A stretch of DNA of 64,000 nt from Hyphomicrobiales bacterium. GTDB lineage: Bacteria; Pseudomonadota; Alphaproteobacteria; Rhizobiales; JAJFHR01. Numbering within the stretch: the stretch's first letter is position 1; every line of letters starts with the position of its first letter. A program made the position numbers and the translations under genes. The stretch spans positions 15,729 through 79,728 of the forward strand of contig JAJFHS010000028.1 in assembly GCA_021775475.1 (NCBI GenBank), read 5' to 3'. The notes under the pieces are model-generated. The model searched no databases. It had not been told where the DNA came from and saw only the letters and a program-made list of their open reading frames with translations. This document shows, piece after piece, positions 40,040-64,000 of this stretch.

Positions 40040-40417
40040 ATGGCGGTGGAAGTGAATAAATTGAACAGTCGGGCCATCTGTGTGCGTATTGCTCCTAATC
40101 AAGACCTTGTAACCAGCATTGAAAAAACCTGCCTGAAGGAGAACATTCTCAATGCTTTTATCAGGGGAAGTCTGGGAAGCCTTACCAGTGCCAACCTGGA
40201 AATTGCCGAGGGGAAATCACAGGCCGTAGAAGGCCCCGTGGTTGAAATATTGTGTTTAAACGGCGAGATAAAATGCGACGATGGAGATGTTCCCCAAGCC
40301 AGCCTGTATGGTGTGGTGGTTGATCAACACGGTGACATCCGGGCGGGCCGGTTTATCCCCAGTGCCAACAATGTCTGTGTCACCATGGAACTGATAATTG
40401 AAGAATGGGGCGATTAA
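40040..40417 (+). CDS. PPC (DUF296)-like domain protein, function unknown
   Basis: 125 aa. Same size and fold pattern as the previous gene (VEILCLNGEI...LYGVVVDQHGDIRAGRF...VCVTMELIIEE). Confidence 0.5.
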   Translation: MAVEVNKLNSRAICVRIAPNQDLVTSIEKTCLKENILNAFIRGSLGSLTSANLEIAEGKSQAVEGPVVEILCLNGEIKCDDGDVPQASLYGVVVDQHGDIRAGRFIPSANNVCVTMELIIEEWGD

Positions 40418-42111
40418 AATACAGGTGTTTCGCGATATACGCCCCAGACAGTTTTAAGTTTTTCAACAATGTCACCCATGGTGGCACCGGCTTTTACCAG
40501 CTTAATGGTAACGGGCATAATGTTCTGACTGTCGTCTTGGGCGGTTTGAACCAGATCGTCGAGCAGAGCTTGCACTTTGCTTTCATCGCGCTGGGCGCGG
40601 ACGCGCCTGGTTCTTGAAATCTGTTTTTTTGCGGTTTCAAGATCATAGGGGTGAGTTTCTATTTTTACGTCACTCTCATCCATTTTGTGGCAGTTGACAC
40701 CAATGACCGGCTTTTCGCCCGATTGTTTTCGCAACGCTGTTTCATAGGCAAAATCTGCGATGTGTTTTTGAAACCAGCCTTCTTCGATCAGTTTGATGGT
40801 GCCGCCGCGTTCATCAATTTCGCCCAGCACTTCGAAGATTTTGTTTTCATATTCATTGGTCAGCGCTTCGACATAGTATGAGCCGCCGAGTGGATCGACC
40901 ACCTGGGTTACATTGGTTTCGTCCGATATGATTTGCTGGGTGCGCAAAGCCAGTCGCATGGCATCTTCGGTGGGAATGGCGAAGGCCTCATCATAGCCGT
41001 TGGTGTGCAGGGATTGTGCGCCGCCGAGTACGGCTGAAAGCGCCTGAAAGCCGGTGCGCACCGTGTTGATCATGAATTGCGGTTTTGTCAGTGATGCGGC
41101 CGCCGTCTGGCAATGAAAACGCAGGCGCATGGATTCAGGCTTTTTAGCATCAAAGCGCTCTTTCATAATCTTGGCATAACACCGCCGCAAGGCGCGAAAC
41201 TTGGCAATTTCCTCAAAGAAATCGGCCTGGGAGACAAAGAAAAAAGACAGGCGCGGGGCAAAATCATCCACATCCATCCCGGTTTTTACAACCTCCTCCA
41301 CATAGACAATCAGATTGGCAAGGGTGAAGGCTGCCTCATGCAGGGGCGATGCACCGGCTTCTGAAATGTGGTAGCCGGAGATGTTGACCGGGTTGTAGCG
41401 TTTCATGGTTTTGGCTGAATAGGCAATCATGTCACGCACAATTCGCACCGATGGCGCTATTGGAAAAATGAACTCTTTTTGCGCCATATATTCTTTGAGA
41501 ATGTCGGCCTGAACCGTGCCGGATATCTTGTTGAGATCGCAACCACGCTTTTCAGCCAGAGCGATATACATGGCCAGTAAAATCCAGGCAGACGGATTTA
41601 TGGTCAAGGACACAGAGATTGCTTCAAGATCAATGTCGGCAAACAGCGCTTCCATATCGGCGAGCGTGTCTACGGCTACACCTTCGCGTCCGACTTCGCC
41701 ATCTGACATTTCATGATCACTGTCATAGCCCATCAGGGTTGGCATATCAAAATCGGTGGAGAGGCCGGTCTGGCCTTGTGAGATCAGGAATTTAAAGCGC
41801 TCATTGGTATCTTCGGCAATGCCAAAACCGGCAATCTGGCGCATGGTCCAGTTGCGACTGCGATACATGGTGGGATATGGCCCGCGGGTGAACGGATATT
41901 TGCCGGGAAGACCAATGTCTTGCGCCGGGGTATCAGCAATATCCGCAGCTGTGTATGTACGTTCAACCGGAATATCACCAGCGGTGTAAAACTGTTCGCG
42001 GGCTTCTGGCGCCCGCGCCAGAAAACCGGCGACTTCACCCGCCTGCCATTTTTCGGCTTCGGTGGCTGTGTCTTGCGTGGAAATTTGCGAGATGGTTTTA
42101 GGTGTTTTCAT
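40414..42111 (-). CDS. hcmA: B12-dependent acyl-CoA mutase large (substrate-binding) subunit, 2-hydroxyisobutyryl-CoA mutase HcmA-like
   Basis: TIM-barrel mutase motifs (FTRGPYPTMYRSRNWTMRQIAGFG, GLSTDFDMPT). Ile in RQIAG and Asp 27 residues later replace Tyr/Arg (MCM) or Phe/Gln (ICM). ATG at 42111 has a GAGGA RBS; the track start 42126 is TTG. Confidence 0.7.
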   Translation of the reverse strand: MKTPKTISQISTQDTATEAEKWQAGEVAGFLARAPEAREQFYTAGDIPVERTYTAADIADTPAQDIGLPGKYPFTRGPYPTMYRSRNWTMRQIAGFGIAEDTNERFKFLISQGQTGLSTDFDMPTLMGYDSDHEMSDGEVGREGVAVDTLADMEALFADIDLEAISVSLTINPSAWILLAMYIALAEKRGCDLNKISGTVQADILKEYMAQKEFIFPIAPSVRIVRDMIAYSAKTMKRYNPVNISGYHISEAGASPLHEAAFTLANLIVYVEEVVKTGMDVDDFAPRLSFFFVSQADFFEEIAKFRALRRCYAKIMKERFDAKKPESMRLRFHCQTAAASLTKPQFMINTVRTGFQALSAVLGGAQSLHTNGYDEAFAIPTEDAMRLALRTQQIISDETNVTQVVDPLGGSYYVEALTNEYENKIFEVLGEIDERGGTIKLIEEGWFQKHIADFAYETALRKQSGEKPVIGVNCHKMDESDVKIETHPYDLETAKKQISRTRRVRAQRDESKVQALLDDLVQTAQDDSQNIMPVTIKLVKAGATMGDIVEKLKTVWGVYRETPVF

Positions 42112-43051
42112 TTTTAAAATCCTCAATCAACGACAAGGCAAGCGAATAAGGATCACCTTTGCGGGCAGCCAGCTTTTGTGCGCTTGCGGTGATATCCAAA
42201 AAGTTGCGAAATTCTTCCAACAACAAGGTTTCAGCCGCCTTGGACAATCTGAACCTGGCAATATCTTCCCGGCGCTGTGAATTTACCGAACTATCTTTGT
42301 GAGCAGCCAATGCCTCAATCAGCGCTTCAAAACCTTCATCCGCATAGGAACTAATGCCAATAACAGGTGGGTGCCAATGGTCAATGCCGGAAGAACCAAG
42401 GCCGTCTTTCAGCATCATTTTCAGGTCTGTCAGACAGCGGTTAGCGTCACCGCGGTCGCATTTTGACACGACATGAATGTCGGCGATTTCCAAAATACCG
42501 GCTTTGATCGCCTGAATTTCATCACCCAGCCCCGGCGCTGAAACCACCACCGTTGTGTGCGCTGCATGAGCAATTTCCACTTCATCCTGACCAACACCAA
42601 CGGTTTCAATAATAATCGTATCAAAGCCCGCCACATCAAGAATATCCACAACATCAAGAGCACAATGGGCCATACCACCAACAGCACCGCGGGTGGCCAT
42701 GGAACGGATAAAAACGCCGGGGTCGAGCACCAAGTCGGCCATGCGAATGCGATCGCCCAGAATGGAGCCGCCGGAATAAGGACTGGAGGGATCGATGGCA
42801 ACGATGGCAATGGTGCGACCGTTCTGACGCAGCTTTTCCGCCAACTTGTTAACCAACGTGGATTTGCCGCTGCCCGGAACACCGGTAATACCGATAATGT
42901 GGGCGCGACCGGCTTTGCGGTAGATTTCTCCAATGGCTTCACGTGCCTCAGTCGCCCCGGCTTCGGCCCGGGTGATCATTCGGGCAATGGCCCAGGTCTG
43001 CCCGCTTTCGATATGTTCGATCAGTTCATGTGAAGGGACATAGGCTGCCAT
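42098..43051 (-). CDS. meaB: MeaB-like G3E-family GTPase (mutase chaperone, MeaH-like)
   Basis: ITGVPGSGKSTL P-loop, IIETVGVGQ and VSKCD motifs. Confidence 0.88.
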   Translation of the reverse strand: MAAYVPSHELIEHIESGQTWAIARMITRAEAGATEAREAIGEIYRKAGRAHIIGITGVPGSGKSTLVNKLAEKLRQNGRTIAIVAIDPSSPYSGGSILGDRIRMADLVLDPGVFIRSMATRGAVGGMAHCALDVVDILDVAGFDTIIIETVGVGQDEVEIAHAAHTTVVVSAPGLGDEIQAIKAGILEIADIHVVSKCDRGDANRCLTDLKMMLKDGLGSSGIDHWHPPVIGISSYADEGFEALIEALAAHKDSSVNSQRREDIARFRLSKAAETLLLEEFRNFLDITASAQKLAARKGDPYSLALSLIEDFKNENT

Positions 43052-44484
43052 CAGGAATTATGCTCCTCAAGTCTTGCGCGCATTTCGCGCAGCACATCGC
43101 GATCATCAATTACCCGGCGCGCCTTGAAATCGGTTCTTTCAATCGAATTAGGTGCGACGATCTCGACCACAGCGCGCAGGCCGAGAATTTTGTGCAGATG
43201 GGTGGCAGCAACACCCTGAAAAGCCGCTATGCTTTGTGGCCCGGATTGCCAGACACTTGTATCGGCTTCCAGCGTGACGGCGATTTCATCCATACTGCCT
43301 TCGCGGGTGATCAAAATACGGTGCTCACCACCATAGGAGGGCAGTTGGTTGAGGGCGGCATCAATTTCGCTTGGATAGACGTTTTCGCCGCGGATGGTGA
43401 ACATGTCATCAATGCGGCCGATGATGCCCAACGGTAGACGTGGGTAGGTGCGGCCACAGGGGTTGGGCCCGTCCTGCCACAAGGTGAGATCGCCTGATTC
43501 CATTCGGATCATCGGTTGTGAGGTGCGCTCAAGATGGGTGTAAACCGGCGTGCCGCGCGATCCATACGGCACACGCACATGAGTTTTGGGATCGCACACT
43601 TCGGTATAGACAATATCCTGCCAGCACAGCATACCTGAGGTTTCAAACGATCCGCCCACATGCATCCACGGGGTCATTTCTGCCATTGATCCGCTGTCGA
43701 AAACTTTGGCACCATAAAGCTCCTGTATTTTGTCGCGCACGCTGGGAATGGAGGCTCCGGGTTCGCCAGAAAAGAACATATAGCGCAAGCCGAAATCACG
43801 CGGGTTAAGGCCATTGTCAATGGCTGTTTGGGCCAGATGCAGGGCATAGGTGGGGGTGCCGTAAAAACCAGCCGGTTTGAGAGTGTTGAGCCACTGGGCG
43901 CAACGTGCCGACATGCCGGTGGCACCGGCACCGAACGGAAAAGCCTTGGCACCAAGACGCTCGGCCCCGGCCAGCGCCCCCCAACTGCCCATATACAGAC
44001 TGAAAATGGCAGCGACACAGATAATGTCGCCGGGCCGCATGCCCATCGCCCACATAATACGGGCATGGGCATTGGCGATAGATCGCCAGTCATCGCGACC
44101 GATGGCGAAAGCCGTTGGCGTGCCGGTGGTGCCGCTGGTGCCGTGAATATGATAGATTTCATCTTGAGGGATACACAGGTAATCACCAAAGGGGGTGTGA
44201 TTTTCCTGTGATGCGCGTATTTCAGCTTTTCTGATAACCGGAACGCGGGCTTCAAAATCCTCCAGTGATTTCAACTGCGAGGGATGAAACCCGGCCTCGT
44301 CCCATCTGGTGCGGTAGAAGCCCGCGTTTTCATAAGCGTAAGCGCAAATCTCCTGTAGCCGCTTTAAAATATGCCCCTCGCGTTCGCCTGCGGGCATTGT
44401 TTCGCGCGCCGTAAACCAGTAGCGGCTGTCAGGCGGCGGCATATAGCTGTCATCGTACTTTGGCGGGAACGACCATTGTTCCAT
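43051..44484 (-). CDS. phenylacetate-CoA ligase (PaaK)-family acyl-CoA ligase, candidate 2-hydroxyisobutyrate-CoA ligase (Hcl-like)
   Basis: 477 aa. HGTSGTTGTPT AMP-binding loop and PaaK-like length and architecture. It sits between the two mutase subunit genes. Confidence 0.65.
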   Translation of the reverse strand: MEQWSFPPKYDDSYMPPPDSRYWFTARETMPAGEREGHILKRLQEICAYAYENAGFYRTRWDEAGFHPSQLKSLEDFEARVPVIRKAEIRASQENHTPFGDYLCIPQDEIYHIHGTSGTTGTPTAFAIGRDDWRSIANAHARIMWAMGMRPGDIICVAAIFSLYMGSWGALAGAERLGAKAFPFGAGATGMSARCAQWLNTLKPAGFYGTPTYALHLAQTAIDNGLNPRDFGLRYMFFSGEPGASIPSVRDKIQELYGAKVFDSGSMAEMTPWMHVGGSFETSGMLCWQDIVYTEVCDPKTHVRVPYGSRGTPVYTHLERTSQPMIRMESGDLTLWQDGPNPCGRTYPRLPLGIIGRIDDMFTIRGENVYPSEIDAALNQLPSYGGEHRILITREGSMDEIAVTLEADTSVWQSGPQSIAAFQGVAATHLHKILGLRAVVEIVAPNSIERTDFKARRVIDDRDVLREMRARLEEHNS

Positions 44485-44495
44485 AATCTTTATCC

Positions 44496-44906
44496 TTACC
44501 TGGGGCCGCGTTCGGCAACCAGCTGTTGCAGCGAGGCGATGATCTCCTTAGGCGGAGTATCTTGCAGCATCACCAAAGCCACACCCATTTTTTTGATGGC
44601 AACAACATCTTCATCGGGCATGACACCGCCAGCAACAACGATCAGGTCATTGACATTTTTTTCTTTCAACAGCGCAAATATTTTTGGAAAAACCGTTAAC
44701 TGTACACCAGACAAAAGACTAACGCCGAGGATGTCGACATCCTCCTGAACAGCGGCGATGACCACTTCTTCCGGGGTGCGGTGAAGACCGGAATAGACCA
44801 CATCCATGCCGGCATCGCGCAAAGTTCGGGCTACGACCTTGATGCCACGGTCATGGCCATCAAGGCCAACTTTTGCCAGCAAAACTCTGATTGCCGTTGA
44901 CGCCAT
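44496..44906 (-). CDS. hcmB: acyl-CoA mutase small subunit (cobalamin-binding domain), HcmB-like
   Basis: DGHDRG (D-x-H-x2-G) B12-binding motif and a Rossmann-like fold. ATG at 44906 (136 aa) has an AGGGGGA RBS; the track ORF extends to TTG 44936. Confidence 0.8.
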   Translation of the reverse strand: MASTAIRVLLAKVGLDGHDRGIKVVARTLRDAGMDVVYSGLHRTPEEVVIAAVQEDVDILGVSLLSGVQLTVFPKIFALLKEKNVNDLIVVAGGVMPDEDVVAIKKMGVALVMLQDTPPKEIIASLQQLVAERGPR

Positions 44907-44927
44907 AACCCATCCCCCTGTCATTTC

Positions 44928-44976
44928 GCATACCAAATTTCGTATACAGAATGCTGTTTTGACGCTATAGTGTCAA
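44928..44976. promoter_or_regulatory. two palindromes in the hcmB / gntR divergent region (candidate GntR operators)
   Basis: GCATACCAAATTTCGTATAC (44928-44947, 16/20 self-complementary, GT..AC type) and TTGACGCTATAGTGTCAA (44959-44976, 16/18 self-complementary). Confidence 0.4.
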
Positions 44977-47054: not shown

Positions 47055-47768
47055 ATGCAAAATTTCACCACCGCGCGGCATGGGTGTGAGGCTGCGGGCT
47101 CTTTTACCTGTATGGCGTCTGCAGATGATAATGGCGATCCCCTTGCACGGCTACCTTATCAGTTGACCGATATAGAAAGCGCTTTGAAACATGTCCGGCG
47201 TGCACCTTATCCAATTATCATTATTTCCAGCGGTGCGGCTGGCTTGCAACATTTTCTCAAAGATGGCCGACGAACCATTTCTACGATATTCCTGACCGGT
47301 GAAGTCCTGGATTTTAGTCAGATACGAGGAAGCGGGGGCTCGTTATGTTGCCTCCTTCCCGGCCAGGTACAAATGTTCAATGCGGTAGATCTGGAAAAAC
47401 TGCGACAGGAAAACCCACAAGCCTGGTCGAGCCTGATGGTTGATAAATTCAGGTGTTGTAGTCAAATCGCCAATCATTCCGTCGACCTTGCCCGCAAGTC
47501 TGCGGTTGAAAAGCTCGCTTCATTTATTTTTGAATGCCGCAACCGTCAGGCTGCCGAGCGTGGCAAACTCATAAACCTGATTTTAAACCGAATTGATATT
47601 GCAGATTATATGGGGTTGAGACCGGAAACACTTTCACGTGCTTTCACAAAACTGAAACAGCTTAAAATGATAGCCTGCGAGTGTGGAGATTGTATTCATA
47701 TTCTCAATGAGCCGGCCTTGCGACAAATTGCAAATGGTGCGGCCGACGAATTTGCCTGCGCGGTATGA
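47055..47768 (+). CDS. Crp/Fnr family transcriptional regulator (FixK-like; no canonical FNR Cys cluster)
   Basis: C-terminal HTH IADYMGLRPETLSRAFTKLK carries the E--SR recognition motif of FNR/FixK proteins that read TTGA-N6-TCAA. AGGAGG RBS. Confidence 0.82.
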   Translation: MQNFTTARHGCEAAGSFTCMASADDNGDPLARLPYQLTDIESALKHVRRAPYPIIIISSGAAGLQHFLKDGRRTISTIFLTGEVLDFSQIRGSGGSLCCLLPGQVQMFNAVDLEKLRQENPQAWSSLMVDKFRCCSQIANHSVDLARKSAVEKLASFIFECRNRQAAERGKLINLILNRIDIADYMGLRPETLSRAFTKLKQLKMIACECGDCIHILNEPALRQIANGAADEFACAV

Positions 47769-47772
47769 ACAC

Positions 47773-49170
47773 TTATGCTCTGGCAGAAATTCCCGCTCTG
47801 GCATTCGCGGGCGCTACCTGTGCGACATCGGGCAGGTAGCAGTTAATTTTGCTCGCTGTTGCCCGTGCTTGTTCTATGCAACTTCCGACAGACACACCGC
47901 CGAGATAATTTCCAGTGACATATAATCCGGGCTGACGCAGGTGCAAAGCCTCTATGGTTGAAACTTTAACGCTGTGCCCGATCTCATATTGCGGGATGCT
48001 GCGCGCCCATTGACGGCAGCGGGAAAAAATCGGCTCGCCACTGATTTCCAACAGATCTGATAGTTCGCGGTGTACCAGATGGCTGAGGTCATTGCTGTTC
48101 AGGCAGGCTGCGTCATGGTTGCCGCTGCCGCCCACATAAGCAGAAATCGAGACAAATCCATCGGGAGCCCTATTGGCAAACATGGTCGAAGGGAATTGCG
48201 CACCGTTGATAATTCCTCCTGACCCTGCCACACTCAAAAACCCCAGACTATCAAGGCGGTGGCTAACCTGCTGGCGGGCATAGGCCAGAAAAATGACGCT
48301 AAGAGGGGGGGCATCAATCGCGGCTGCGGCTGTTGCAGCTGGCTCATCCAATGGCTCAAGCAGGCTGGCGGCAACGTGTGGCTGAACGGCAAAGACAATT
48401 GTTCTGGCTATCAGGTCACCTGATCTGTGAGTCTCTAACCTGTAGCCTTGCGGGTGTTTTGAAACGGATTTGACTGCGGTGCCGGTTTTAATGCAACCGG
48501 CCATCGCGTTAGCCAAAGTCTTCGGCAATGTTGCGATACCATCGCGAAACGAAAACAGTCTTTTACCGGGTTCACCACTGTGTCCGGCGTTAAACACACC
48601 TCGCGTGACAGAACCGAATTGCTGCTCCATTTTCATTAGTTTAGGAAAGGCTGATTGCAAAGATAGCTTGTGAGCGTCCCCCGCAAAAATTCCAGCCACC
48701 AGCGGTGCCATGATTTTTTCGGCAAACTCGATGCCAAAGCGACGGCATATAAAGGCGTGAATGCTTTCATCTTCGTTATTTGTTTTGCGCGGGCGTAGTA
48801 TCTCGGTCATGAGACGAAGCCGCCCACGAACAGACAGATAGGGCGACATCAGGAAACCCGTGCGCTTAATTCCGATGCCGTGCAAGGTACCGCCGTCACG
48901 CAGATAGCGTTTGCGCACACCGAGGCCCAAATCAAGTAGCTGGTTTTCAATATCGAGATTTTTAGTCAATTCCAGCGCTTGCGGCACCAGGGTATTGAGG
49001 GTGGTGGGACCATGTTCCATCAAGAAACCATTGATGCGCTGGGATATGGCATTGCCGCCAACGGTTTGCTGGCGTTCGAGGACAATAACCCGGCGGCCAC
49101 TTCGCTGCAGATCATACGCTGTGGTCAGGCCGGAAATGCCCCCACCTATTATAGCAACATCGTAGGTCAT
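47773..49170 (-). CDS. HemY-type FAD-dependent (copro/proto)porphyrinogen oxidase-like protein
   Basis: 465 aa. DVAIIGGGISGLTTAY...LERQQTVGGN...EHGPTTL dinucleotide-fold N-terminus, and overall length as in HemY/PgoX/CgoX. ATGA overlap with the radical SAM gene. Confidence 0.68.
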   Translation of the reverse strand: MTYDVAIIGGGISGLTTAYDLQRSGRRVIVLERQQTVGGNAISQRINGFLMEHGPTTLNTLVPQALELTKNLDIENQLLDLGLGVRKRYLRDGGTLHGIGIKRTGFLMSPYLSVRGRLRLMTEILRPRKTNNEDESIHAFICRRFGIEFAEKIMAPLVAGIFAGDAHKLSLQSAFPKLMKMEQQFGSVTRGVFNAGHSGEPGKRLFSFRDGIATLPKTLANAMAGCIKTGTAVKSVSKHPQGYRLETHRSGDLIARTIVFAVQPHVAASLLEPLDEPAATAAAAIDAPPLSVIFLAYARQQVSHRLDSLGFLSVAGSGGIINGAQFPSTMFANRAPDGFVSISAYVGGSGNHDAACLNSNDLSHLVHRELSDLLEISGEPIFSRCRQWARSIPQYEIGHSVKVSTIEALHLRQPGLYVTGNYLGGVSVGSCIEQARATASKINCYLPDVAQVAPANARAGISARA

Positions 49171-50453
49171 GACACCTCAGGCCTTTTGATGCCCGGTGGC
49201 ATGCCATTTTTGAACCGCTCTTTGGCCAGACGCGAAAGGTCATCTGCTGTGACCGTTGATCCGCCCTTTGAGCGCACATCTGCCTCAACGCGATTTTTGA
49301 CCATACGGCGAACGAAACCGGGTATGCGGGCAACGCGTTGTTGGGCATCGTCTGTCCAGTTGAGGTTAGTCTCACCGGTTTTCAAAACTTCGATGATTGC
49401 CCCGTTTTGCGGCTGGTATGAACATAGAAAGTCTTCACCCATGAGATCGTTTGAGCGCGCCAGCGGCCGGGCGCGACAACCGCCACACAGTTTTTGAAAT
49501 TCACAAACCCCGCAACGCCCTTCCAGTTGTGGCTGGCGCAGGGCGGTAAAAATCTCACCATCCTGCCAGATGTCGGAAAAACTGTTGTGGCGCAAAGACC
49601 CGCCGGAGGTTTCGATGAACGGACAAGGGGTTACCTCACCTTCGGGTGTGACGCGGGCATATCGTGTGCCGGCAATACAGCCACCGGCTTCATAACCATG
49701 AGCCATGGTGATCGGCCATTCCGGGTCGAGATCAAGCGCCAGTCGTTTGAAATGCGGCGCACATTTAGCGCGCACCATCAATTGCTTTTCATCGTGGGCA
49801 GCCTCGACAACGCGCTTGAGCACCTTGTCGTAATTTTCAATCGAAATATCGGTGTATTTCTCACCACGCCCGGTGCACACCAGAAAAAACACATTGAGCA
49901 CCAAAGCCTGTGCCTGCCGGGCAAAGCTGATCATGTCGTCAATTTCATCTGCGGTATGATCGGTAACCGAAAAATGTATCTGGAAGGCTAGACCTTCTTT
50001 GCGGCAGGCATCTATGGCGGCCATGGTTTTCAACCAGGCACCTCTGCGGCCGCGAAAATCATCATGCTTTTGCGGATCAAGGGAATCGATACTCAGACCA
50101 ATACCGGCAACCCCGGATTTTTTGAGACGCTTTACCCGTTCAGCTGTCAAAGTGATACCGTTGGATCCAATGACGACCATCAGCCCGAGTTTGCTGGCGT
50201 GGGCTGCCAATTCTTCGATGTCTGGGCGCAGCAACGGTTCACCACCGGTCAATACGATCATACACTCCGGCCCAACGCTGGCGATGTCACTGATGGCCCT
50301 TTTTACCTCGTCGGTAGACAATTCATCGGTGCTGCCGTTTTTCAGAATTTCAGCATCAAGATAACAATGCGTGCACGACAGGTTGCACCGTTTTGTCAAA
50401 TTGAAGGCGACAAGAAAAGGTGCCTCTACCGGATTAGAATCTGGTCTAGTCAT
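49167..50453 (-). CDS. radical SAM/SPASM protein of the NirJ/AhbC/AhbD tetrapyrrole-modifying type with a C-terminal BchB-C-terminal-like (PCP_red) module
   Basis: CNLSCTHCY cluster motif, NVFFLVCTGRG and AKCAPHFKR (family hallmarks), SPASM cysteines (GGCIAG...CPF, CGVCEFQKLCGGCRARP), and the tail WTDDAQQRVARIPGFVRRMVKNRVE. The ATG at 50453 overlaps the upstream stop by 8 nt; the track ORF to 50714 is rejected. Confidence 0.78.
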   Translation of the reverse strand: MTRPDSNPVEAPFLVAFNLTKRCNLSCTHCYLDAEILKNGSTDELSTDEVKRAISDIASVGPECMIVLTGGEPLLRPDIEELAAHASKLGLMVVIGSNGITLTAERVKRLKKSGVAGIGLSIDSLDPQKHDDFRGRRGAWLKTMAAIDACRKEGLAFQIHFSVTDHTADEIDDMISFARQAQALVLNVFFLVCTGRGEKYTDISIENYDKVLKRVVEAAHDEKQLMVRAKCAPHFKRLALDLDPEWPITMAHGYEAGGCIAGTRYARVTPEGEVTPCPFIETSGGSLRHNSFSDIWQDGEIFTALRQPQLEGRCGVCEFQKLCGGCRARPLARSNDLMGEDFLCSYQPQNGAIIEVLKTGETNLNWTDDAQQRVARIPGFVRRMVKNRVEADVRSKGGSTVTADDLSRLAKERFKNGMPPGIKRPEVS

Positions 50454-52107
50454 GATCGCGCTCGGTTGCATCAGGCTTCGGGCACATGGCTTTTCGCGCT
50501 TTGGCAAAACCCCCTTCGGCAACCTCACCATCAACGCGAACTTCACCGTTTGCGCGCACATAATCTTCAATGGTTTGCCTGGCTTTGGACCGAAAAATTT
50601 CCGGCACTCTTTGCAGTCGTGCCAGATAGGCTGCTGCCCACTCGAGATCATTGTGGTAAGTCTCGGCAACAAAAGGTTGCACGTGTTGTGGTAATACTTC
50701 GGTGGCAGCATCACGGCGGGCGGATTTTTCTGCTCTCAGGCGAATATTTTCCTGCAACACCTTGTCATCCAGCGTTGCCAGCAGGGCCGTTGCTGCGGCA
50801 TTCCAGGCGAGCGGGTCAAAACCTGAACTGACGGGTGTTTCATCACCGTCAGAATTTCCGCCCGGCATCATTTTTTTCATCACATCTTCAACAAAGCGGC
50901 TGGTGATGAATGTATGTCCCTCTGCATGGGCCTGGCGAATAACCGAGGTGCGGGCGATGCCACGGACAAAATCAGGCGCGCGCGACATCATTGCATCAGC
51001 CTCGTCAGACCACATTATGGTTTCTTCAGCGATAACATCAAGCGAAGGAAAATGGGTCTTTTGGCCAATCCAGATGTGGCACGGTGCCATCCGTAACAGA
51101 TTTTCCGTGGTGCCGCCGATGTCGAGTTCTTCATCACCATGAACGCCAACCTTTCCTACCATCAACAAGCTTGCGTCAACTTTTTCGAGATATTTGCGGA
51201 TGGCCTGAAACGGTTTTCCTGAAACCAGCTTGCAGATGATGTTGACACCTTCTTCTTCGGCCACAGTTTTGGCAATGGCAAGATGGGATTGGTAGATCTT
51301 GGCAATACCATCATCAATCAGTTCTTCGTGCAGCTGTTCCTGCTCTTTAAACCGAAACACTTTTCCCGCCTCATCAGATAAAACACCGGCAATCTTGTTA
51401 AAGGCAACGTAGTGATAATAGGGATCATAAGCTGCAACTGCGTGCACGTCGGCACCGATCTGGCGGGCGATCATCAGTGCGGATTTGAGAACTCCGAAAG
51501 ACTGGGGTGAGCCGTCAATTCCGACAACGATTGGTCCATCACCAATGCTGGTTTTGCGGTCTTTGATTACCAGCACATCAATTGGCGCGCGCCGTACAAC
51601 ACGTTCGCAAACGCTGCCAATAATACTGCCTGCAACCGCACCAAGCCCGCGGGAGCCCAGGGCGAGCACGTCAAATTCTCCGGTTTTAGCCGCATCAATG
51701 ATGCAGGTGTAGTTTTTACCTTCCGGGCTCAACCTTTTGAATTTTACTTGGGATTTTTCGCATTTGGCTTGAGCCGTATCATGGTAACTGTCGGAAATAA
51801 TGCCAAGTCCCTTGCCAATCAGGTCTTCATGTACGTCGCGCTGGTGTTCCATTTCGGTTTCATAACGATAACGTTCCGGCAATCCGCCTTCCATCTGCTT
51901 GAAACGCCGGTCATGCATTTTGGCAGCATAGGCATGAATGCCTATTATATTGCCATTGATTGGCTTAACCAATTTGATGGCTTCGACAACTGCCTGGTTG
52001 GCGAGGTCTGATTGATCAAGGGCGACAAGAATATTGTTCAGGCGAACCGGTGCTGTACCGACTTGCTCATCGGCAATTTTTTCAGTGTGCGCCCTTGCTG
52101 TAGACAT
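50446..52107 (-). CDS. tandem universal stress protein (2x Usp) fused to three PCP_red-like modules
   Basis: Usp domains at about aa 24-182 (GSRGLGAVAGSIIGSV) and 192-348. From aa 366 come three ~45-aa repeats starting WSDEADAMMSRAPDFVRG, WNAAATALLATLDDKVLQ and WAAAYLARLQRVPEIFRS. Confidence 0.75.
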   Translation of the reverse strand: MSTARAHTEKIADEQVGTAPVRLNNILVALDQSDLANQAVVEAIKLVKPINGNIIGIHAYAAKMHDRRFKQMEGGLPERYRYETEMEHQRDVHEDLIGKGLGIISDSYHDTAQAKCEKSQVKFKRLSPEGKNYTCIIDAAKTGEFDVLALGSRGLGAVAGSIIGSVCERVVRRAPIDVLVIKDRKTSIGDGPIVVGIDGSPQSFGVLKSALMIARQIGADVHAVAAYDPYYHYVAFNKIAGVLSDEAGKVFRFKEQEQLHEELIDDGIAKIYQSHLAIAKTVAEEEGVNIICKLVSGKPFQAIRKYLEKVDASLLMVGKVGVHGDEELDIGGTTENLLRMAPCHIWIGQKTHFPSLDVIAEETIMWSDEADAMMSRAPDFVRGIARTSVIRQAHAEGHTFITSRFVEDVMKKMMPGGNSDGDETPVSSGFDPLAWNAAATALLATLDDKVLQENIRLRAEKSARRDAATEVLPQHVQPFVAETYHNDLEWAAAYLARLQRVPEIFRSKARQTIEDYVRANGEVRVDGEVAEGGFAKARKAMCPKPDATERDHD

Positions 52108-52261: not shown

Positions 52262-53002
52262 TCAGAATGACAGGTCGATTTTGGTGTCGGCGCCAGAGGC
52301 AACCTTTACCTTGCCACTCTTGATTTCACCTAAAAACCCCTGCCACAGCCTGATTTTGTATTCGCCAGGCGGTATGTCACCGATGGTGAACTCACCGTTT
52401 TCATTAACAACGGAAAAATAAGGGCTTTGGGCAACGAACATATAGGCATGCATAAAATCATGCGCGTCGCACTCGATTTTCATGCCGGCACCTTTACGCA
52501 TTTTGATTTTCTTGGTTACCTTGTCCCCGGCGTTGGGCTGCGACACGTTTATTGCTGTGCGTCTTGCTTTGCCGATAAGTTCGTAGGTGTGGATGTTATG
52601 CAGGGTTTTATCTGAATTAACAGCGGTGAGTTTTCCGCCATTCGCCATCACGGAAAATCCGGGAGCAAACGCGCATTTTTCCTGATTGATGGTTACATTC
52701 ATCAGCTCTTTTGGAAATGCTTTACCCTGCTTGACTTTGTACAGAAAGACTATCGCATTTTTTACAGTGCCGTTTTTGTTAATTTCAACAAGGGGCACAA
52801 TGCGTTTGCCTTCACCACAGATTTGTGGATCCTTGGAAATAGTGAATGTTTTTGTTTTCTCGACAACACCGCCTGCCATAACTTTTCCCGAAATACTGCC
52901 ACCATCGGAGACATCGATTTCCTTGTACTTTGCGGCGTGAGCCAATCCGGTAAAACTTACCAATGCAACTGTGCAGAGTATTCCTTTAAACAATCTATTC
53001 AT
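52262..53002 (-). CDS. periplasmic cupredoxin-like protein with amicyanin-type ligand spacing plus a C-terminal Ig-like (carboxypeptidase-regulatory-like) domain
   Basis: Signal peptide MNRLFKGILCTVALVSFTGLAHA. Candidate type-1 Cu ligands are H in TLHNIHTYE and C-x2-H-x2-M in IECDAHDFMHAYM. C-terminal GEFTIGDIPPGEYKIRLW. Confidence 0.6.
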   Translation of the reverse strand: MNRLFKGILCTVALVSFTGLAHAAKYKEIDVSDGGSISGKVMAGGVVEKTKTFTISKDPQICGEGKRIVPLVEINKNGTVKNAIVFLYKVKQGKAFPKELMNVTINQEKCAFAPGFSVMANGGKLTAVNSDKTLHNIHTYELIGKARRTAINVSQPNAGDKVTKKIKMRKGAGMKIECDAHDFMHAYMFVAQSPYFSVVNENGEFTIGDIPPGEYKIRLWQGFLGEIKSGKVKVASGADTKIDLSF

Positions 53003-53038
53003 CGACGTTTCCTCTTCGTTAAATGTTGAAAATAGGGC

Positions 53039-55207
53039 TCAGGCGGCGGCTTGGATATCACCATTTTCTGAATAGCTGAAGAGATCTCCAAGCGCTTCGA
53101 TGGCGACCAGCCATGCCCGCTTGTTGTCATCATCATCAAGAATATTGAGATATTTTTCCGCCGCTTCATTGGCGTTCCAGTCCTTGAGCATGGCGACAAT
53201 ATCGCGACGGTGCATACCATCATGCGCCAGGCTTAATTCAACCAGAACATCCATTTGAGAGCGCCGGTTGGCAAGGACTTGAGCCGCAGCAATTCGAACC
53301 CCGGAATAATTATCATCAAGTGCACGCAACAGGCTTTCCACATGACCTTTCTTGCGACCAAGGGCTGTGATGGCTTCACGGCGAGCATGCACATCGCCAT
53401 CACTGCATAACTCGACCAGGACATCTTCAACCTCTTTGCCCTTGATGTAACCGAGGCAACGGGCGCCAAGCATGCGAACAACACGATCTTTATGCTGAGT
53501 TTCTTTTAGGATTGCCGGGTACAGGCGTTTTTTCAATTTCCCCCGCCGATTGGCAATGAGAGCCAGACTTTCCAGACAGGATTGTTTGAGCTCAACATCA
53601 TCATCTCCTAAGGCCTGGCCCAGAGCTCTAGTCACTCCCGGAAAATCAAAGTCACCCAGAAGACAGGCAGTAAACCGGCGAACATCACGATGGGGAGCTA
53701 CTTTGGCATCCAGCGATACCTTGCCTTTTTTCATCGCGCGCAATTTCGATATTTCGAGGAATTTTTTATCGTCTTCGGAAAGTTTTATTTCCTCCGGTTC
53801 CGGTTCATTTTTGAGGGCCGGTTCGGTGCCAACTCCATCGCGTAAAATTTTATCCAATGTGGATGTGGCAGGAGATTGTTCTTCGGGCACAACATCGTCA
53901 ACGTCTCTGGCTGTTTCTTGTTCTGTGTCGTCTACGTCCTCAACCGCCTCGACAAGTTCGCCTCGAAGCGCCGCGAGGAGACTGTCCCCGGCCGTGTTGG
54001 GCCATTTACCTGAGGTAGCAATTTCTGCCAGCGCCGACATGGTCGAGATGCGGATCTGTCTGTTGCTGTTGCCAATGGTATCCAGCAGATAGGGCAGACC
54101 GGCATCATCGAGCAAGGTTAGTGCTTCAATCAAGCCAAGCCGAAAAATCAGTGGTTGTTCAGGGTTTTGCAGTGCTCGCCCCAAGCTTTTTGCTGATTCT
54201 TTTCCAATCATGCCTGCCCAGGCGACAGCTGCGGCACCGGCAACTTCCGGTATGCCGATTATGGCCTTTTTGACAATCTCGGAAAAACCTTCTTTTTCAA
54301 ACGCTCCGGGTTCAACGGCAATTGACCTGAAGATTGTTTCCCGGACTTTCGCAGACTTGTCAGACAATCTCTCCATCGCCAAACCAGGTTCGTTTGAGCT
54401 TATTGTTTTGGCAATCAGAATGCGCACATCAACATCATTGTCACTGAAGTATGCGGCAAGACGGGCGTCTTCAGGGTCATTATCAATTATTTTTTCCAGA
54501 GCAACATAGCGAACTTCACCTGCGTTATCGGCCAGACACTTTTCCAAAAGTCCATCCATTTCGACAGATTGCCCTGGCTGTAAAACCGAACAGACCCGGC
54601 GGCGCGTGCGTGCGTCACCTTCGGTGTACAATGTGGTCAGTGCGGCAACACCTTCGGTTTTAAGTTGAGCCAGAGCCGGGATGGCAACCTGGGTCAGGTC
54701 TTGACCCTCGTCATTTTTCAATTCGTTCATAATGACAGTGACGGATTTAGCTGTACCAACTTTACCCAGCGCCTTGATTGCCGCCAGTTGAATGTCGAGC
54801 CAGTCATCCCAGCCTGAGGCATAACAATCGTCATCTCCCCAGTTTATTTCTTCTTCCCGGCCCGCAACTATTGTATGCAGCCAGGGGACAACCGGGCGAT
54901 GGTTGACGCTGGCAAGCAATTCAATTGCTGACAGTTTGACTTCTGGGCAGGGGTCACCGAGAAGATTTTCCATGATGGCACCGGCAGCTTGCGTTTCGTC
55001 AAGTTCAAGCAAGGCGGCGGCGGCATCGGTCCTTACATCTTCATCTTCATCCAGCAGTGCCTGTTGCAGCACGGGTCCAGCTCCGGGATGAGCAATCTTG
55101 CCCACCGCCTTTGCTGCGGCACAACGATGAATATCCAGCCCCTCCAAAACGAGAGTACTCAGTTGGGTAAATGCTCTTTCTTTTGCAGATTTTGCTCTTG
55201 TTACCAT
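53039..55207 (-). CDS. HEAT-repeat (PBS-lyase HEAT-like) protein, cytoplasmic
   Basis: About 722 aa of repeated D.d..VR..AA.AL units with a central acidic/Lys-rich linker and no signal peptide. ATG at 55207; the track start 55213 is TTG. Confidence 0.75.
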   Translation of the reverse strand: MVTRAKSAKERAFTQLSTLVLEGLDIHRCAAAKAVGKIAHPGAGPVLQQALLDEDEDVRTDAAAALLELDETQAAGAIMENLLGDPCPEVKLSAIELLASVNHRPVVPWLHTIVAGREEEINWGDDDCYASGWDDWLDIQLAAIKALGKVGTAKSVTVIMNELKNDEGQDLTQVAIPALAQLKTEGVAALTTLYTEGDARTRRRVCSVLQPGQSVEMDGLLEKCLADNAGEVRYVALEKIIDNDPEDARLAAYFSDNDVDVRILIAKTISSNEPGLAMERLSDKSAKVRETIFRSIAVEPGAFEKEGFSEIVKKAIIGIPEVAGAAAVAWAGMIGKESAKSLGRALQNPEQPLIFRLGLIEALTLLDDAGLPYLLDTIGNSNRQIRISTMSALAEIATSGKWPNTAGDSLLAALRGELVEAVEDVDDTEQETARDVDDVVPEEQSPATSTLDKILRDGVGTEPALKNEPEPEEIKLSEDDKKFLEISKLRAMKKGKVSLDAKVAPHRDVRRFTACLLGDFDFPGVTRALGQALGDDDVELKQSCLESLALIANRRGKLKKRLYPAILKETQHKDRVVRMLGARCLGYIKGKEVEDVLVELCSDGDVHARREAITALGRKKGHVESLLRALDDNYSGVRIAAAQVLANRRSQMDVLVELSLAHDGMHRRDIVAMLKDWNANEAAEKYLNILDDDDNKRAWLVAIEALGDLFSYSENGDIQAAA

Positions 55208-55270
55208 GATCAATGTCCCAGAACGTCCTGTTTTGTGGGTTCAATTGAGCACAATCGGCGGCGGCCTCCC

Positions 55271-55284
55271 TTGACATATGTCAA
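55271..55284. promoter_or_regulatory. perfect palindromic FNR/FixK-type box TTGACATATGTCAA upstream of the HEAT-repeat operon
   Basis: TTGA-N6-TCAA, fully self-complementary. The centre is 70 nt upstream of the ATG at 55207. Confidence 0.65.
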
Positions 55285-55341: not shown

Positions 55342-55378
55342 AAAACCGGAAGAGGCCTATTCTCTTCCGGTTTTTTTT
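55342..55378 (-). terminator. rho-independent terminator after the Mo-oxidoreductase gene
   Basis: 9-bp stem CCGGAAGAG / CTCTTCCGG (55346-55354 / 55362-55370) extended by A/T pairs, with T-runs on both strands. It begins 32 nt past the stop at 55410. Confidence 0.6.
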
Positions 55379-63436: not shown

Positions 63437-64000
63437 GGGTTTTCCGGCAGGTTTTTCAGGTAATCGATAATCAGGTTCAATTCGCTCACCCGCATCTGCT
63501 CACCAAAGTCGTCAGGCATGGTATCGGCTTCAAAGCCTTCGGCAATTTCCGCATTGGGTTTGATAATTGCTTCAGTGATTTTGGCATCATCAAGTTTTTT
63601 GGAAATACCGTTTAGTTTTGGTCCGATATCAGCCTCCGATCCCTCCAGATCATGACAGGAGCTGCAACCGAATTTTTCCAATGCCGCAACGGCAGTGGTT
63701 GACGGACCTTCTTCTTCCTCACCGGCGTCGTTGCTGGGCGCAGGTGCTTCACTGGCACTTGGCAGGGCTATTGTGGGGGTGAGACCGGCCCGGTCCTGTA
63801 AAAATGCCGTAATCGCATTTATTTCAACCGGTGACAGAGAGATCGGGGGCAAATTAATTTTTGGCATTTGGCTGATGGTGTCACCAGAACCTTTTTTACC
63901 AAATCCGGCAACCACATATTTTGAAGGATCGAGCATCGATTCATGAATATACTCACCAATAGCCTGCGCACCTTCTTTGGACTTGGCGATGCCTGTGTAG
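63433..64000 (-). CDS. multihaem class I cytochrome c (5' end outside the window)
   Basis: The frame stays open to the window edge upstream of the track ATG (63936). One complete domain has CSSCHD ... TMP, and the tail of a preceding haem domain is visible (SQMP). ATGA overlap with the 755-aa cytochrome gene. Confidence 0.7.
   Translation of the reverse strand, partial: YTGIAKSKEGAQAIGEYIHESMLDPSKYVVAGFGKKGSGDTISQMPKINLPPISLSPVEINAITAFLQDRAGLTPTIALPSASEAPAPSNDAGEEEEGPSTTAVAALEKFGCSSCHDLEGSEADIGPKLNGISKKLDDAKITEAIIKPNAEIAEGFEADTMPDDFGEQMRVSELNLIIDYLKNLPENP

What the first reader, a model, noticed from the sequence alone, without database searches (positions are those of the whole stretch)
49170..51012. 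Four copies of a BchB/ChlB C-terminal-like (PCP_red) module spread over two adjacent non-photosynthetic proteins
Seen: four ~45-aa segments share the pattern W-x3-A-x3-h-x2-h-P/D-x-F/h-h-R-x5-9-E-x2-A/V-R-x2-G. Three are in the USP protein, starting at W366, W435 and W490 (about nt 51012-50488). They read WSDEADAMMSRAPDFVRGIARTSVIRQAHAEGHTFIT, WNAAATALLATLDDKVLQENIRLRAEKSARRDAATEVL and WAAAYLARLQRVPEIFRSKARQTIEDYVRANGEVRV. The fourth is the tail of the radical SAM enzyme (about nt 49358-49215): WTDDAQQRVARIPGFVRRMVKNRVEADVRSKGGSTVT. Established: this resembles the C-terminal helical domain of the DPOR B subunit (W..EAE..L.KIPFFVRGKARRNTEKFA), which caps the protochlorophyllide pocket. Finding it four times, fused to Usp domains and to a NirJ/AhbD-like enzyme where no photosynthesis genes are visible, is unusual. 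It argues for a tetrapyrrole-binding or hand-over function.
Basis: partly seen in the sequence, partly recalled or inferred. Interest (0 to 1): 0.62.

Follow-up and report, generated by a model that had tools for sequence, protein, structure and literature searches.

The report
PCP_red modules in haem-maturation genes
Two overlapping genes carry real copies of a small domain otherwise known from the chlorophyll enzyme DPOR, and with a neighbouring HemY oxidase they form an unstudied gene set that most likely finishes and hands over haem for an unusual cytochrome bd-like respiratory complex.

Summary
Three of the four segments pass Pfam's PCP_red (PF08369) threshold on their own. The fourth (W435) is a degenerate copy. 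The evidence for this is profile-profile alignment, weak in-register Pfam hits in orthologues, and an identical predicted beta-alpha-alpha-beta-alpha pattern.

The claim of rarity does not hold. PCP_red occurs in about 2,200 protein clusters and in half of the sampled non-phototrophic Nitrospirota genomes. Usp+PCP_red is its commonest multi-module architecture.

The genes Usp-Usp-PCP_red x3, AhbD/NirJ2-like radical SAM-PCP_red and HemY overlap. They keep this order in all 42 alphaproteobacterial loci with enough sequence.

The set is accessory, because HemN, HemJ and one ferrochelatase lie elsewhere in the genome. The iodate-reductase genes beside it are not its constant partner. That partner is a divergent CydA-like (cytochrome bd-like) gene with cytochrome c/EB_dh proteins:
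- 10 of 10 alphaproteobacterial genomes with the radical SAM gene have the CydA-like gene, against 2 of 341 without it.
- 47 of 47 Nitrospirota genomes with the CydA-like gene have PCP_red.

Best reading: a low-oxygen haem finishing and delivery module. No tetrapyrrole binding by PCP_red has been shown. I found no paper describing this module.

The parts
50446..52107 (-). Gene for the 553-aa Usp-Usp-PCP_red x3 protein
   Evidence: ORF. Usp scores 122 bits and PCP_red 60.4 bits. The 120 best homologues all have Usp+PCP_red at 62-96% identity.
51064..52035 (-). Tandem Usp domains (about residues 25-182 and 191-348), each with a G-x2-G-x9-G-(S/T) nucleotide-binding motif: G151/G154/G164-S165 and G318/G321/G331-G332-T333
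   Evidence: Pfam finds two stretches. The motif glycines are invariant in 116 sequences. Foldseek's best matches are the tandem USPs Rv2623 and ATP-bound TTHA0350.
50869..51012 (-). PCP_red module 1 (residues 366-413)
   Evidence: PF08369 38.9 bits when scanned alone. Predicted E365-366, H368-375, H379-396, E400-401, H403-413.
50668..50805 (-). Degenerate PCP_red module 2 (residues 435-480). The P-x-F-V-R motif is replaced by D-x2-V/L-x-E-N-I-x-L-R-A-E-K-x-A-R-R-D-A
   Evidence: No Pfam hit for the window copy. hhalign 93% against the radical SAM tail. Orthologues give in-register PF08369 hits of 13-18 bits. Same predicted secondary structure: E434-435, H437-443, H449-465, E470-471, H473-480.
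50485..50640 (-). PCP_red module 3 (residues 490-541)
   Evidence: PF08369 34.1 bits when scanned alone. Aligns to ChlB 455-501 of PDB 2xdq_B and to the 63-aa domain 2kru.
50479..50484 (-). Conserved Cys-Pro (M541-C542-P543) directly after module 3. It resembles a haem-regulatory motif
   Evidence: C542 is invariant and M541 and P543 are >=90% conserved in 116 sequences. 'MCP' is present in 30 related loci (31 of the 60 tails listed, the window's own included). More distant clades have Met/His-rich tails instead.
49167..50453 (-). Gene for the 428-aa radical SAM/SPASM enzyme with a C-terminal PCP_red. Its ATG overlaps the Usp stop by 8 nt
   Evidence: Radical_SAM 96 bits, SPASM 33 bits, PCP_red 49.5 bits. 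NirJ2 307.7 bits and AhbD 290.9 bits, both below the 500-bit cut-off. Overlap read. AF2 pLDDT 83.6, pTM 0.85.
49215..49358 (-). PCP_red module of the radical SAM enzyme (residues 366-413)
   Evidence: PF08369 54.2 bits when scanned alone. Hits PDB 2kru. pLDDT 82-91.
47773..49170 (-). HemY-type protoporphyrinogen/coproporphyrinogen oxidase gene. Its start overlaps the radical SAM stop (ATGA)
   Evidence: TIGR00562 284 bits, above the 97.85 cut-off. Closest structures are M. xanthus PPO 2ivd and B. subtilis 3i6d. Overlap read. Only HemY homologue in the genome.
52262..55213 (-). Upstream genes of the same apparent transcription unit: a 724-aa HEAT/PBS-lyase-like repeat protein (53039-55213) and a 246-aa secreted protein (52262-53002)
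   Evidence: Pfam. Both co-occur with the three genes in the idr-type loci.
55271..55284 (.). FNR/FixK-type palindrome TTGACATATGTCAA upstream of the HEAT gene. It follows a strong bidirectional terminator at 55342-55374 that closes the idrA unit
   Evidence: Sequence shown. A Crp/Fnr-family regulator gene lies at 47055-47768 (+).

Best explanation
The four segments are three canonical PCP_red (PF08369) domains and one degenerate one. They belong to a conserved, translationally coupled three-gene set:
- a tandem-Usp protein with three PCP_red modules,
- an AhbD/NirJ2-like radical SAM/SPASM enzyme with one PCP_red tail,
- a HemY-type porphyrinogen oxidase.

I read the set as an accessory terminal haem-synthesis and hand-over module, probably induced at low oxygen. 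It serves a divergent CydA-like (cytochrome bd-like, probably OR-N-type) enzyme and its cytochrome c/EB_dh haem-b partners. Here the iodate reductase has been inserted into that cluster.

Proposed steps, all inferred:
1. HemY oxidises a porphyrinogen.
2. The radical SAM enzyme removes CO2 from the two propionates without O2. It acts either on coprohaem (AhbD-like) or on coproporphyrinogen III (the step HemN catalyses).
3. The PCP_red modules are small basic three-helix adaptors strung on flexible linkers. They hold the tetrapyrrole or dock the partners so that the reactive intermediate or haem passes from enzyme to enzyme and on to the apo-cytochromes.
4. The two Usp domains couple this to nucleotide state.

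Shown here: domain identity, gene coupling, synteny, phyletic linkage and accessory status. Inferred: substrates, binding and delivery.
For: Domain identity.

Translational coupling: an 8-nt overlap and an ATGA overlap.

Synteny: Usp-PCP_red, then rSAM-PCP_red, then HemY, in all 42 alphaproteobacterial loci whose contig extends far enough. Nitrospirota have Usp-PCP_red x5 with rubredoxin-like inserts, rSAM-PCP_red, a PCP_red x4 protein and a CopD/HemJ-like membrane protein.

The radical SAM enzyme sits in the tetrapyrrole-tailoring NirJ/Ahb clade. It has CX3CX2C and the SPASM cysteines.

Accessory status: HemN (474 bits), HemJ and a single ferrochelatase lie elsewhere, and there is no ChdC.

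Context: idr genes are absent from about a third of loci. There the set follows cytochrome c/EB_dh fusions plus a CydA-like gene, or a type II DMSO-reductase alpha-beta-delta-gamma(EB_dh) operon. The window's own genome has the CydA-like gene just beyond the window end.

Phyletic linkage in 351 sampled Alphaproteobacteria: the rSAM gene is in 10 genomes of 10 families. All 10 have the CydA-like gene, against 2 of 341 others (p=1e-17). The two genes share a contig, 1-16 kb apart, in 8 of the 9 genomes other than the window's own.

Phyletic linkage in 151 Nitrospirota: 47 of 47 CydA-like-positive genomes have PF08369, against 33 of 104 others. In one search a PCP_red x2 gene lies about 1 kb upstream of a CydA-like gene, with one ORF between them.

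Among nitrogenase-like enzymes the domain is fused to the DPOR B subunit, as its Pfam description and the ChlB hit show. That it is also on BchZ of COR, and absent from NifK and CfbD, is recalled from my own knowledge of Pfam architectures.

A conserved Cys-Pro follows module 3.

AhbD is known to replace ChdC anaerobically in coproporphyrin-pathway bacteria (PMC13564367). The Nitrospirota carriers have ChdC but mostly lack HemN and HemF.
Against: - No binding or activity data exist.
- In DPOR the helix shown to touch Pchlide (BchB 398-420) is not the PF08369 segment. The tetrapyrrole role of the domain is therefore by association only.
- Alphaproteobacterial carriers already have HemN or HemF, so no pathway gap demands this set.
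- No ferrochelatase accompanies the set. That is awkward for a coprohaem route.
- HemY enzymes normally need O2, yet the operon carries an FNR-type box.
- Many Nitrospirota have Usp-PCP_red without a nearby radical SAM gene.
- The Nitrospirota correlation may partly reflect shared ancestry.
- The CydA-like gene was not formally classed as OR-N.
Confidence: 0.55

Rival explanations
1. PCP_red is only a protein-protein docking or regulatory module. The Usp protein senses ATP or another nucleotide. Through like-with-like PCP_red contacts, or by recruiting an electron donor such as ferredoxin or rubredoxin, it switches the radical SAM enzyme on or off. It never touches a tetrapyrrole.
For: - The module is present on both partners.
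- The Usp nucleotide motifs are invariant, and the fold matches ATP-bound TTHA0350.
- Nitrospirota versions intersperse rubredoxin-like domains between PCP_red modules.
- In DPOR the PF08369 segment is not the Pchlide-contacting helix.
Against: - NifK docks the same type of reductase without this domain (my own knowledge of Pfam architectures).
- PCP_red-only proteins of two to four modules exist next to CydA-like genes, with no enzyme to regulate.
- The conserved Cys-Pro or Met/His tail suggests ligand binding.
Confidence: 0.22
2. The set does not make ordinary haem b. It tailors a special tetrapyrrole, for example a haem d-like or partly decarboxylated haem, that the divergent CydA-like oxidase or the EB_dh domains need.
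For: - Linkage to the CydA-like gene is tight in two phyla.
- The radical SAM enzyme scores below both equivalog cut-offs, so it is a distinct subfamily.
- Housekeeping haem b synthesis already exists.
- An O-methyltransferase and a DUF420 gene sit beside a PCP_red gene in a Nitrospirota locus.
Against: HemY and AhbD-like chemistry are exactly the ordinary last steps. No extra tailoring enzyme is conserved in the alphaproteobacterial loci. The haem content of OR-N enzymes is unknown.
Confidence: 0.12
3. The module is specific to iodate respiration. It would supply or repair haem for the IdrP peroxidases, or exploit O2/H2O2 released during iodate reduction.
For: It lies directly downstream of idrP1P2BA here and in about 29 related loci. 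An O2-dependent HemY would make sense if iodate reduction releases oxygen species.
Against: The same three genes occur without idr, next to a type II DMSO-reductase operon or to cytochrome/CydA-like genes only. They also occur in Nitrospirota without idr.
Confidence: 0.06
4. The repeats are generic amphipathic helices, and the resemblance to PCP_red is chance.
For: The window's middle segment alone gives no Pfam hit.
Against: Three segments pass the curated threshold independently, at E 1e-8 to 1e-14. The modules are conserved across two phyla.
Confidence: 0.02

Closest known systems
C-terminal PCP_red domain (PF08369) of DPOR subunit B (BchB/ChlB); isolated domain structure PDB 2kru. The same domain on BchZ of chlorophyllide reductase is from my own knowledge
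   Same: Same domain by HMM: 34-54 bits against a 32.5 cut-off. Aligns to ChlB 455-501 and to 2kru. It is attached to an enzyme that acts on a tetrapyrrole.
   Different: Not fused to a nitrogenase-like subunit. It occurs in tandem (three copies, one degenerate), on a Usp protein and a radical SAM enzyme, in a genome without DPOR. Its role in DPOR is itself undefined, because the Pchlide-contacting helix is a different segment.
AhbD (haem b synthase, TIGR04545) and NirJ2 (TIGR04055), radical SAM/SPASM enzymes that decarboxylate coprohaem
   Same: Best-scoring families, matched end to end (NirJ2 profile 1-325/326, AhbD 1-339/339). CX3CX2C plus SPASM cysteines. AhbD is known to work with HemY-type (CgoX) pathways as the anaerobic substitute for ChdC (PMC13564367).
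   Different: 308 and 291 bits against a cut-off of 500. It has an extra 80-residue tail carrying PCP_red. No AhbA/B/C partners and no radical SAM paralogue in the genome. It occurs in Alphaproteobacteria that use the protoporphyrin route.
Tandem universal stress proteins (Rv2623, TTHA0350, UspE)
   Same: Two Usp domains with nucleotide-binding glycine motifs. Foldseek E 1e-13 to 1e-16.
   Different: Long helical inserts with invariant motifs such as HDRRFKQMEGGLPERY and AGKVFRFKEQE. A 200-residue PCP_red tail.
HemW and CydDC, known haem chaperone and transporter for respiratory enzymes (own knowledge; CydDC in PMC10374445)
   Same: The proposed job is the same: delivering haem to respiratory complexes, including cytochrome bd.
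   Different: No sequence relation. This is a resemblance of proposed function only.
OR-N family of cytochrome bd-like enzymes (Murali et al., bioRxiv 10.1101/2021.01.16.426971)
   Same: The linked gene is a divergent CydA (PF01654, 48.8 bits). OR-N is concentrated in Nitrospirota, the second phylum that carries these PCP_red genes.
   Different: I did not test membership of OR-N. The paper's main text does not mention radical SAM, haem-synthesis or Usp genes.

Membership tests
PCP_red (PF08369) | Score at or above Pfam's gathering cut-off (32.5 bits) | tested here: met
   Modules scanned alone: 38.9, 34.1 and 54.2 bits. The own-genome scan finds the same three.
PCP_red (PF08369), middle segment W435 | Score at or above Pfam's gathering cut-off | tested here: not met
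   No hit for the window copy. Orthologues give 13-18 bits in register. hhalign 93% against the radical SAM tail. I file it as a degenerate copy, not a formal member.
PCP_red (PF08369) | Fold of the solved domain (2kru / ChlB C-terminus) | tested here: inconclusive
   All four segments are predicted as strand-helix-helix-strand-helix. Models could not be cropped, and Foldseek returned only Usp and radical SAM hits.
DPOR/COR B subunit (BchB/ChlB/BchZ) | Nitrogenase-like Oxidored_nitro domains N-terminal to PCP_red | tested here: not met
   Only Usp or Radical_SAM/SPASM precede the domain. BchB equivalogs score 37-44 bits against cut-offs of 490-509.
AhbD haem b synthase (TIGR04545) | Equivalog score >=500 bits | tested here: not met
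   290.9 bits.
NirJ2 (TIGR04055) | Equivalog score >=500 bits | tested here: not met
   307.7 bits.
Radical SAM/SPASM enzymes | CX3CX2C motif and a C-terminal cysteine-rich SPASM domain | tested here: met
   C23, C27 and C30 invariant. C259, C277, C314, C317, C323, C326 and C344 invariant. PF04055 96 bits, PF13186 33 bits. Fold matches PqqE, SkfB, SuiB and anSME.
AhbD haem b synthase | Coprohaem decarboxylase activity | not testable with these tools
   Needs an enzyme assay.
Sirohaem-dependent Ahb pathway | Companion radical SAM enzyme AhbC/NirJ1 in the genome | tested here: not met
   tblastn with the radical SAM protein finds only itself and one weak 27% fragment.
Universal stress protein (PF00582), ATP-binding type | Usp HMM over cut-off and a G-x2-G-x9-G(S/T) motif | tested here: met
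   122 bits in two stretches. Motif glycines invariant in both domains. Nucleotide binding itself was not tested.
HemY (PgoX/CgoX; TIGR00562) | Equivalog score >=97.85 bits | tested here: met
   284.2 bits. Substrate (proto- or coproporphyrinogen) unresolved: 2ivd 192 bits against 3i6d 177 bits.
Coproporphyrin-dependent haem pathway | ChdC, or AhbD in its place, together with CgoX and a coproporphyrin ferrochelatase | tested here: inconclusive
   No ChdC. One ferrochelatase of untested specificity, elsewhere in the genome. HemN and HemJ of the protoporphyrin route are present.
Cytochrome bd subunit I (PF01654), linked gene | HMM over cut-off (26.2 bits) | tested here: met
   48.8 bits over residues 62-573. 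OR-N subfamily membership was not tested.

The most novel reading that the evidence does not exclude
PCP_red is a widespread, unrecognised cytoplasmic haem/tetrapyrrole-carrier domain. Usp-PCP_red proteins, PCP_red-only proteins and a new AhbD-lineage radical SAM-PCP_red enzyme, with HemY or a HemJ/CopD-like oxidase, would form the dedicated cofactor synthesis and insertion system of the OR-N-type cytochrome bd-like oxidases and their EB_dh haem-b partners. The radical SAM enzyme might be a third class of oxygen-independent coproporphyrinogen decarboxylase, or the maker of a modified haem.
Probability: 0.3. Interest if true: 0.8.

Novelty: new variant of a known kind. Interest (0 to 1): 0.6.

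Why it matters
PF08369 is named after one enzyme, yet about 2,200 protein clusters carry it, most of them outside phototrophs. I found no paper on its function.

Here it marks a conserved gene set that joins the last steps of haem synthesis to an uncharacterised family of cytochrome bd-like respiratory enzymes. That family is common in marine Alphaproteobacteria and in Nitrospirota, which are key nitrifiers.

If the reading is right, it gives three things:
- a handle on how these oxidases and periplasmic EB_dh haem-b proteins get their cofactor,
- a new AhbD-like enzyme subfamily to characterise,
- a testable function for a domain whose role even in DPOR is unclear.

It also corrects annotation. 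The proteins are currently labelled 'universal stress protein', 'radical SAM protein' or 'AhbD'.

Tried and rejected
- Foldseek of both full-length models against the PDB returned only tandem Usp and SPASM radical SAM folds. The small PCP_red part could not be searched alone, because models cannot be cropped.
- Literature searches for PF08369, PCP_red or IPR013580 found only incidental mentions. A search for iodate with idrA, radical SAM and universal stress found nothing.
- I first considered that the set serves the iodate reductase. I dropped this because idr-free loci keep the three genes.
- I then considered the EB_dh haem-b domain as the constant partner. It is present wherever alphaproteobacterial flanks reach far enough, but it is absent within 10 kb in Nitrospirota. 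The CydA-like gene is the better-supported constant.
- I tried to decide between PgoX and CgoX for HemY from the closest solved structures. The scores are too similar.
- I tried to decide the radical SAM substrate from pathway gaps. The result is ambiguous. Alphaproteobacterial carriers have HemN/HemF and no ChdC, whereas Nitrospirota carriers have ChdC and mostly lack HemN/HemF.
- The DPOR papers available did not state what the PF08369 segment does.


Full report
**Anatomy**

On the minus strand the window carries, in order:
- idrP1, idrP2, idrB and idrA (61084-55410),
- a HEAT-repeat protein (55213-53039),
- a 246-aa secreted protein (53002-52262),
- a 553-aa Usp protein (52107-50446),
- a radical SAM/SPASM enzyme (50453-49167),
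- a HemY-type oxidase (49170-47773).

A divergent Crp/Fnr-family regulator gene lies at 47055-47768.

The radical SAM ATG overlaps the last codons of the Usp gene by 8 nt. The HemY ATG overlaps the radical SAM stop as ATGA. A strong bidirectional terminator (55342-55374) closes the idrA unit. An FNR/FixK-type palindrome, TTGACATATGTCAA (55271-55284), precedes the HEAT gene.

**Are the four copies real?**

Pfam finds PCP_red (PF08369, cut-off 32.5 bits) in both proteins. Scanned alone, the W366 segment scores 38.9 bits, the W490 segment 34.1 bits and the radical SAM tail 54.2 bits. The W435 segment scores nothing.

The W435 segment is nevertheless among the best-conserved parts of the protein. 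Its alignment matches the radical SAM tail alignment in hhalign at 93% probability over 44 columns. Against modules 1 and 3 it matches less well: 73% over 18 columns, and 15%.

Five of nine orthologous middle segments hit PF08369 and no other family. These hits are in register from the tryptophan, at 13-18 bits. An HMM that I built from canonical modules only detects a middle module in many orthologues.

AlphaFold2 models (pLDDT 78.6 and 83.6) give all four segments the same strand-helix-helix-strand-helix pattern. In the Usp protein the modules are separated by low-confidence linkers.

I conclude that there are three canonical modules and one degenerate module. The shared core is W-x3-A-x7-P-x-F-x-R.

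**Is the setting non-photosynthetic, and is that unusual?**

The genome is 3.86 Mb and 94% complete. It has no PF08369 hit other than these three, so it has no BchB or BchZ.

The domain is common outside phototrophs:
- A profile of 12 modules finds 2,208 clusters at 50% identity with E<=1e-3.
- Of the 80 largest multi-module proteins, 44 carry Usp, 10 carry rubredoxin-like domains and 6-7 carry radical SAM/SPASM.
- 75 of 151 sampled Nitrospirota genomes have the domain over the cut-off, with up to 12 modules each.

Both window proteins have more than 100 close full-length relatives with the same architecture. These are labelled 'universal stress protein', 'radical SAM protein' or 'AhbD'. The architecture is therefore well represented in databases but, as far as I could find, unstudied.

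**Conserved neighbourhood**

Of the 68 related loci, 42 alphaproteobacterial loci with enough downstream sequence all have Usp-PCP_red, then rSAM-PCP_red, then HemY. The other 11 alphaproteobacterial loci end at a contig edge.

About 29 loci have idr upstream. The others have one of two arrangements:
- cytochrome c proteins, cytochrome c/EB_dh fusions and a CydA-like gene (for example L036),
- a type II DMSO-reductase alpha-beta-delta-gamma(EB_dh) operon (L041).

In Nitrospirota (L060) the gene order is:
- a Crp/Fnr regulator,
- Usp-Usp-PCP_red x5 with two rubredoxin-like inserts,
- rSAM/SPASM-PCP_red,
- a protein made only of four PCP_red modules,
- a CopD/HemJ-like membrane protein.

Marine Nitrospirota have Usp-PCP_red x3 followed directly by the CopD/DUF4149-like protein.

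**The constant partner**

In the window's own genome a divergent CydA lies just past the window end (C21:80000-81754; PF01654, 48.8 bits). This extends the cluster to: CydA-like, cytochromes c, cytochrome c3/EB_dh, idr, HEAT, the secreted protein, and then the three genes.

In 351 evenly sampled Alphaproteobacteria the radical SAM gene is in 10 genomes of 10 different families. All 10 have the CydA-like gene, against 2 of the 341 others (Fisher p=1e-17). In 8 of the 9 genomes other than the window's own, the two genes share a contig, 1-16 kb apart.

In 151 Nitrospirota all 47 genomes with a homologue of this CydA-like protein have PF08369, against 33 of 104 without it. This sample is not corrected for shared ancestry. 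In one Nitrospirota genome a PCP_red x2 gene lies about 1 kb upstream of a CydA-like gene, with one ORF between them. A DUF420 gene and an O-methyltransferase gene sit beside it.

The OR-N family of CydA-like enzymes is described as concentrated in Nitrospirota and lacking a quinol site. That paper's main text does not mention these accessory genes.

**Pathway logic**

The radical SAM enzyme matches NirJ2 (308 bits) and AhbD (291 bits) end to end, but below their 500-bit cut-offs. It has the CX3CX2C and SPASM cysteines and the expected fold. HemY passes its equivalog cut-off. It is about equally close to a PgoX structure and a CgoX structure.

The window's genome also has HemN, HemJ and one ferrochelatase elsewhere, and no ChdC. 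The set is therefore accessory.

Among other carriers:
- 10 of 11 Alphaproteobacteria have HemN, 8 of 11 have HemF, and none has ChdC.
- 13 of 14 Nitrospirota have a ChdC/Cld-family protein, 1 of 14 has HemN, and none has HemF.

AhbD is known to stand in for ChdC anaerobically in coproporphyrin-pathway bacteria (PMC13564367). That fits the Nitrospirota.

In Alphaproteobacteria two things fit consecutive steps equally well, coproporphyrinogen to protoporphyrinogen to protoporphyrin: the lack of a local ferrochelatase, and the gene order of radical SAM followed by HemY. I cannot decide between these two routes.

**What the domain does**

This part is inference. Among nitrogenase-like enzymes the domain is fused to the DPOR B subunit, as its Pfam description and the ChlB hit show. 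From my own knowledge of Pfam architectures it is also on BchZ of COR and is absent from NifK and CfbD. Here it sits on an AhbD-like enzyme and next to porphyrinogen oxidases.

In the Hyphomicrobiales/Rhodobacterales clade an invariant Cys-Pro follows module 3. This resembles a haem-regulatory motif. Other clades have Met/His-rich tails at that position.

Against a simple 'pocket cap' analogy: the DPOR helix reported to contact Pchlide in trans is BchB 398-420. PF08369 aligns to ChlB 455-501.

A docking-only or regulatory role is the main rival.

**Verdict**

The domain family and the enzyme families are known. The three-gene module and its link to CydA-like respiratory clusters are, as far as I could find, undescribed in the literature.

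Two earlier notes from this scan on other genomes reached similar readings. I treated them as leads and tested the CydA-like link independently.

Noticed in passing
Own genome C21:80000-81754 (minus strand), about 0.3 kb beyond the window's right end: A divergent CydA-like (cytochrome bd subunit I) gene heads the extended cluster. It is followed by the cytochrome c genes at 63433-64000 and the trihaem-c/EB_dh fusion at 61169-63436.
   Followed up: yes
window 55271-55284 and 55342-55374: A perfect FNR/FixK-type palindrome TTGACATATGTCAA lies upstream of the HEAT gene. Just before it, a 13-14 bp bidirectional terminator hairpin closes idrA. This suggests that the HEAT-to-HemY genes form their own low-oxygen-regulated unit.
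   Followed up: partly
window 50479-50484 (Usp residues C542-P543): An invariant Cys-Pro dipeptide follows the last PCP_red helix. It resembles haem-regulatory motifs. In Rhodospirillales-type orthologues it is replaced by AM-x-EAM-x2-GGH, and in Nitrospirota by AMEEAMK.
   Followed up: partly
window 53039-55213: A 724-aa HEAT-repeat protein has PBS-lyase-type repeats, with weak NblB/CpcE-like hits. These are families that handle linear tetrapyrroles. It co-occurs with the three genes in idr-type loci.
   Followed up: no
L041:2905-9933: A Rhizobiaceae locus places a type II DMSO-reductase-like operon directly upstream of the same three genes. The operon has a 1226-aa Mo subunit, a beta subunit (not checked here), a Nitrate_red_del chaperone and an EB_dh gamma subunit. 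A CydA-like gene lies at the start of the locus.
   Followed up: partly
L060:5410-7899 (minus strand): A Nitrospirota locus has an 829-aa fusion of a radical SAM/SPASM domain with a class I SAM methyltransferase. It lies next to the Crp/Fnr gene and is divergent from the PCP_red genes.
   Followed up: no
L079:2546-8676 (Nitrospirota genome G113): The gene order is a CarboxypepD_reg-like secreted protein, an O-methyltransferase, a DUF420 membrane protein, a PCP_red x2 protein, an unknown 362-aa protein and a CydA-like protein. Two FGE-sulfatase-like genes and a second CydA-like gene follow.
   Followed up: partly
L036:14333-15070: An SCO1/SenC copper chaperone gene follows HemY in Rhodospirillaceae-type loci.
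   Followed up: no
Genomes G001-G014 (Nitrospirota carriers): Thirteen of 14 have a ChdC/Cld-family gene. Only one has a HemN above the cut-off and none has HemF. This is consistent with a coproporphyrin-type haem route in these Nitrospirota.
   Followed up: partly
window 40414-44936: A split B12-dependent acyl-CoA mutase cluster (large subunit, MeaB-like GTPase, PaaK-like ligase, small B12-binding subunit) with a divergent GntR/FCD regulator. It is unrelated to the finding.
   Followed up: no
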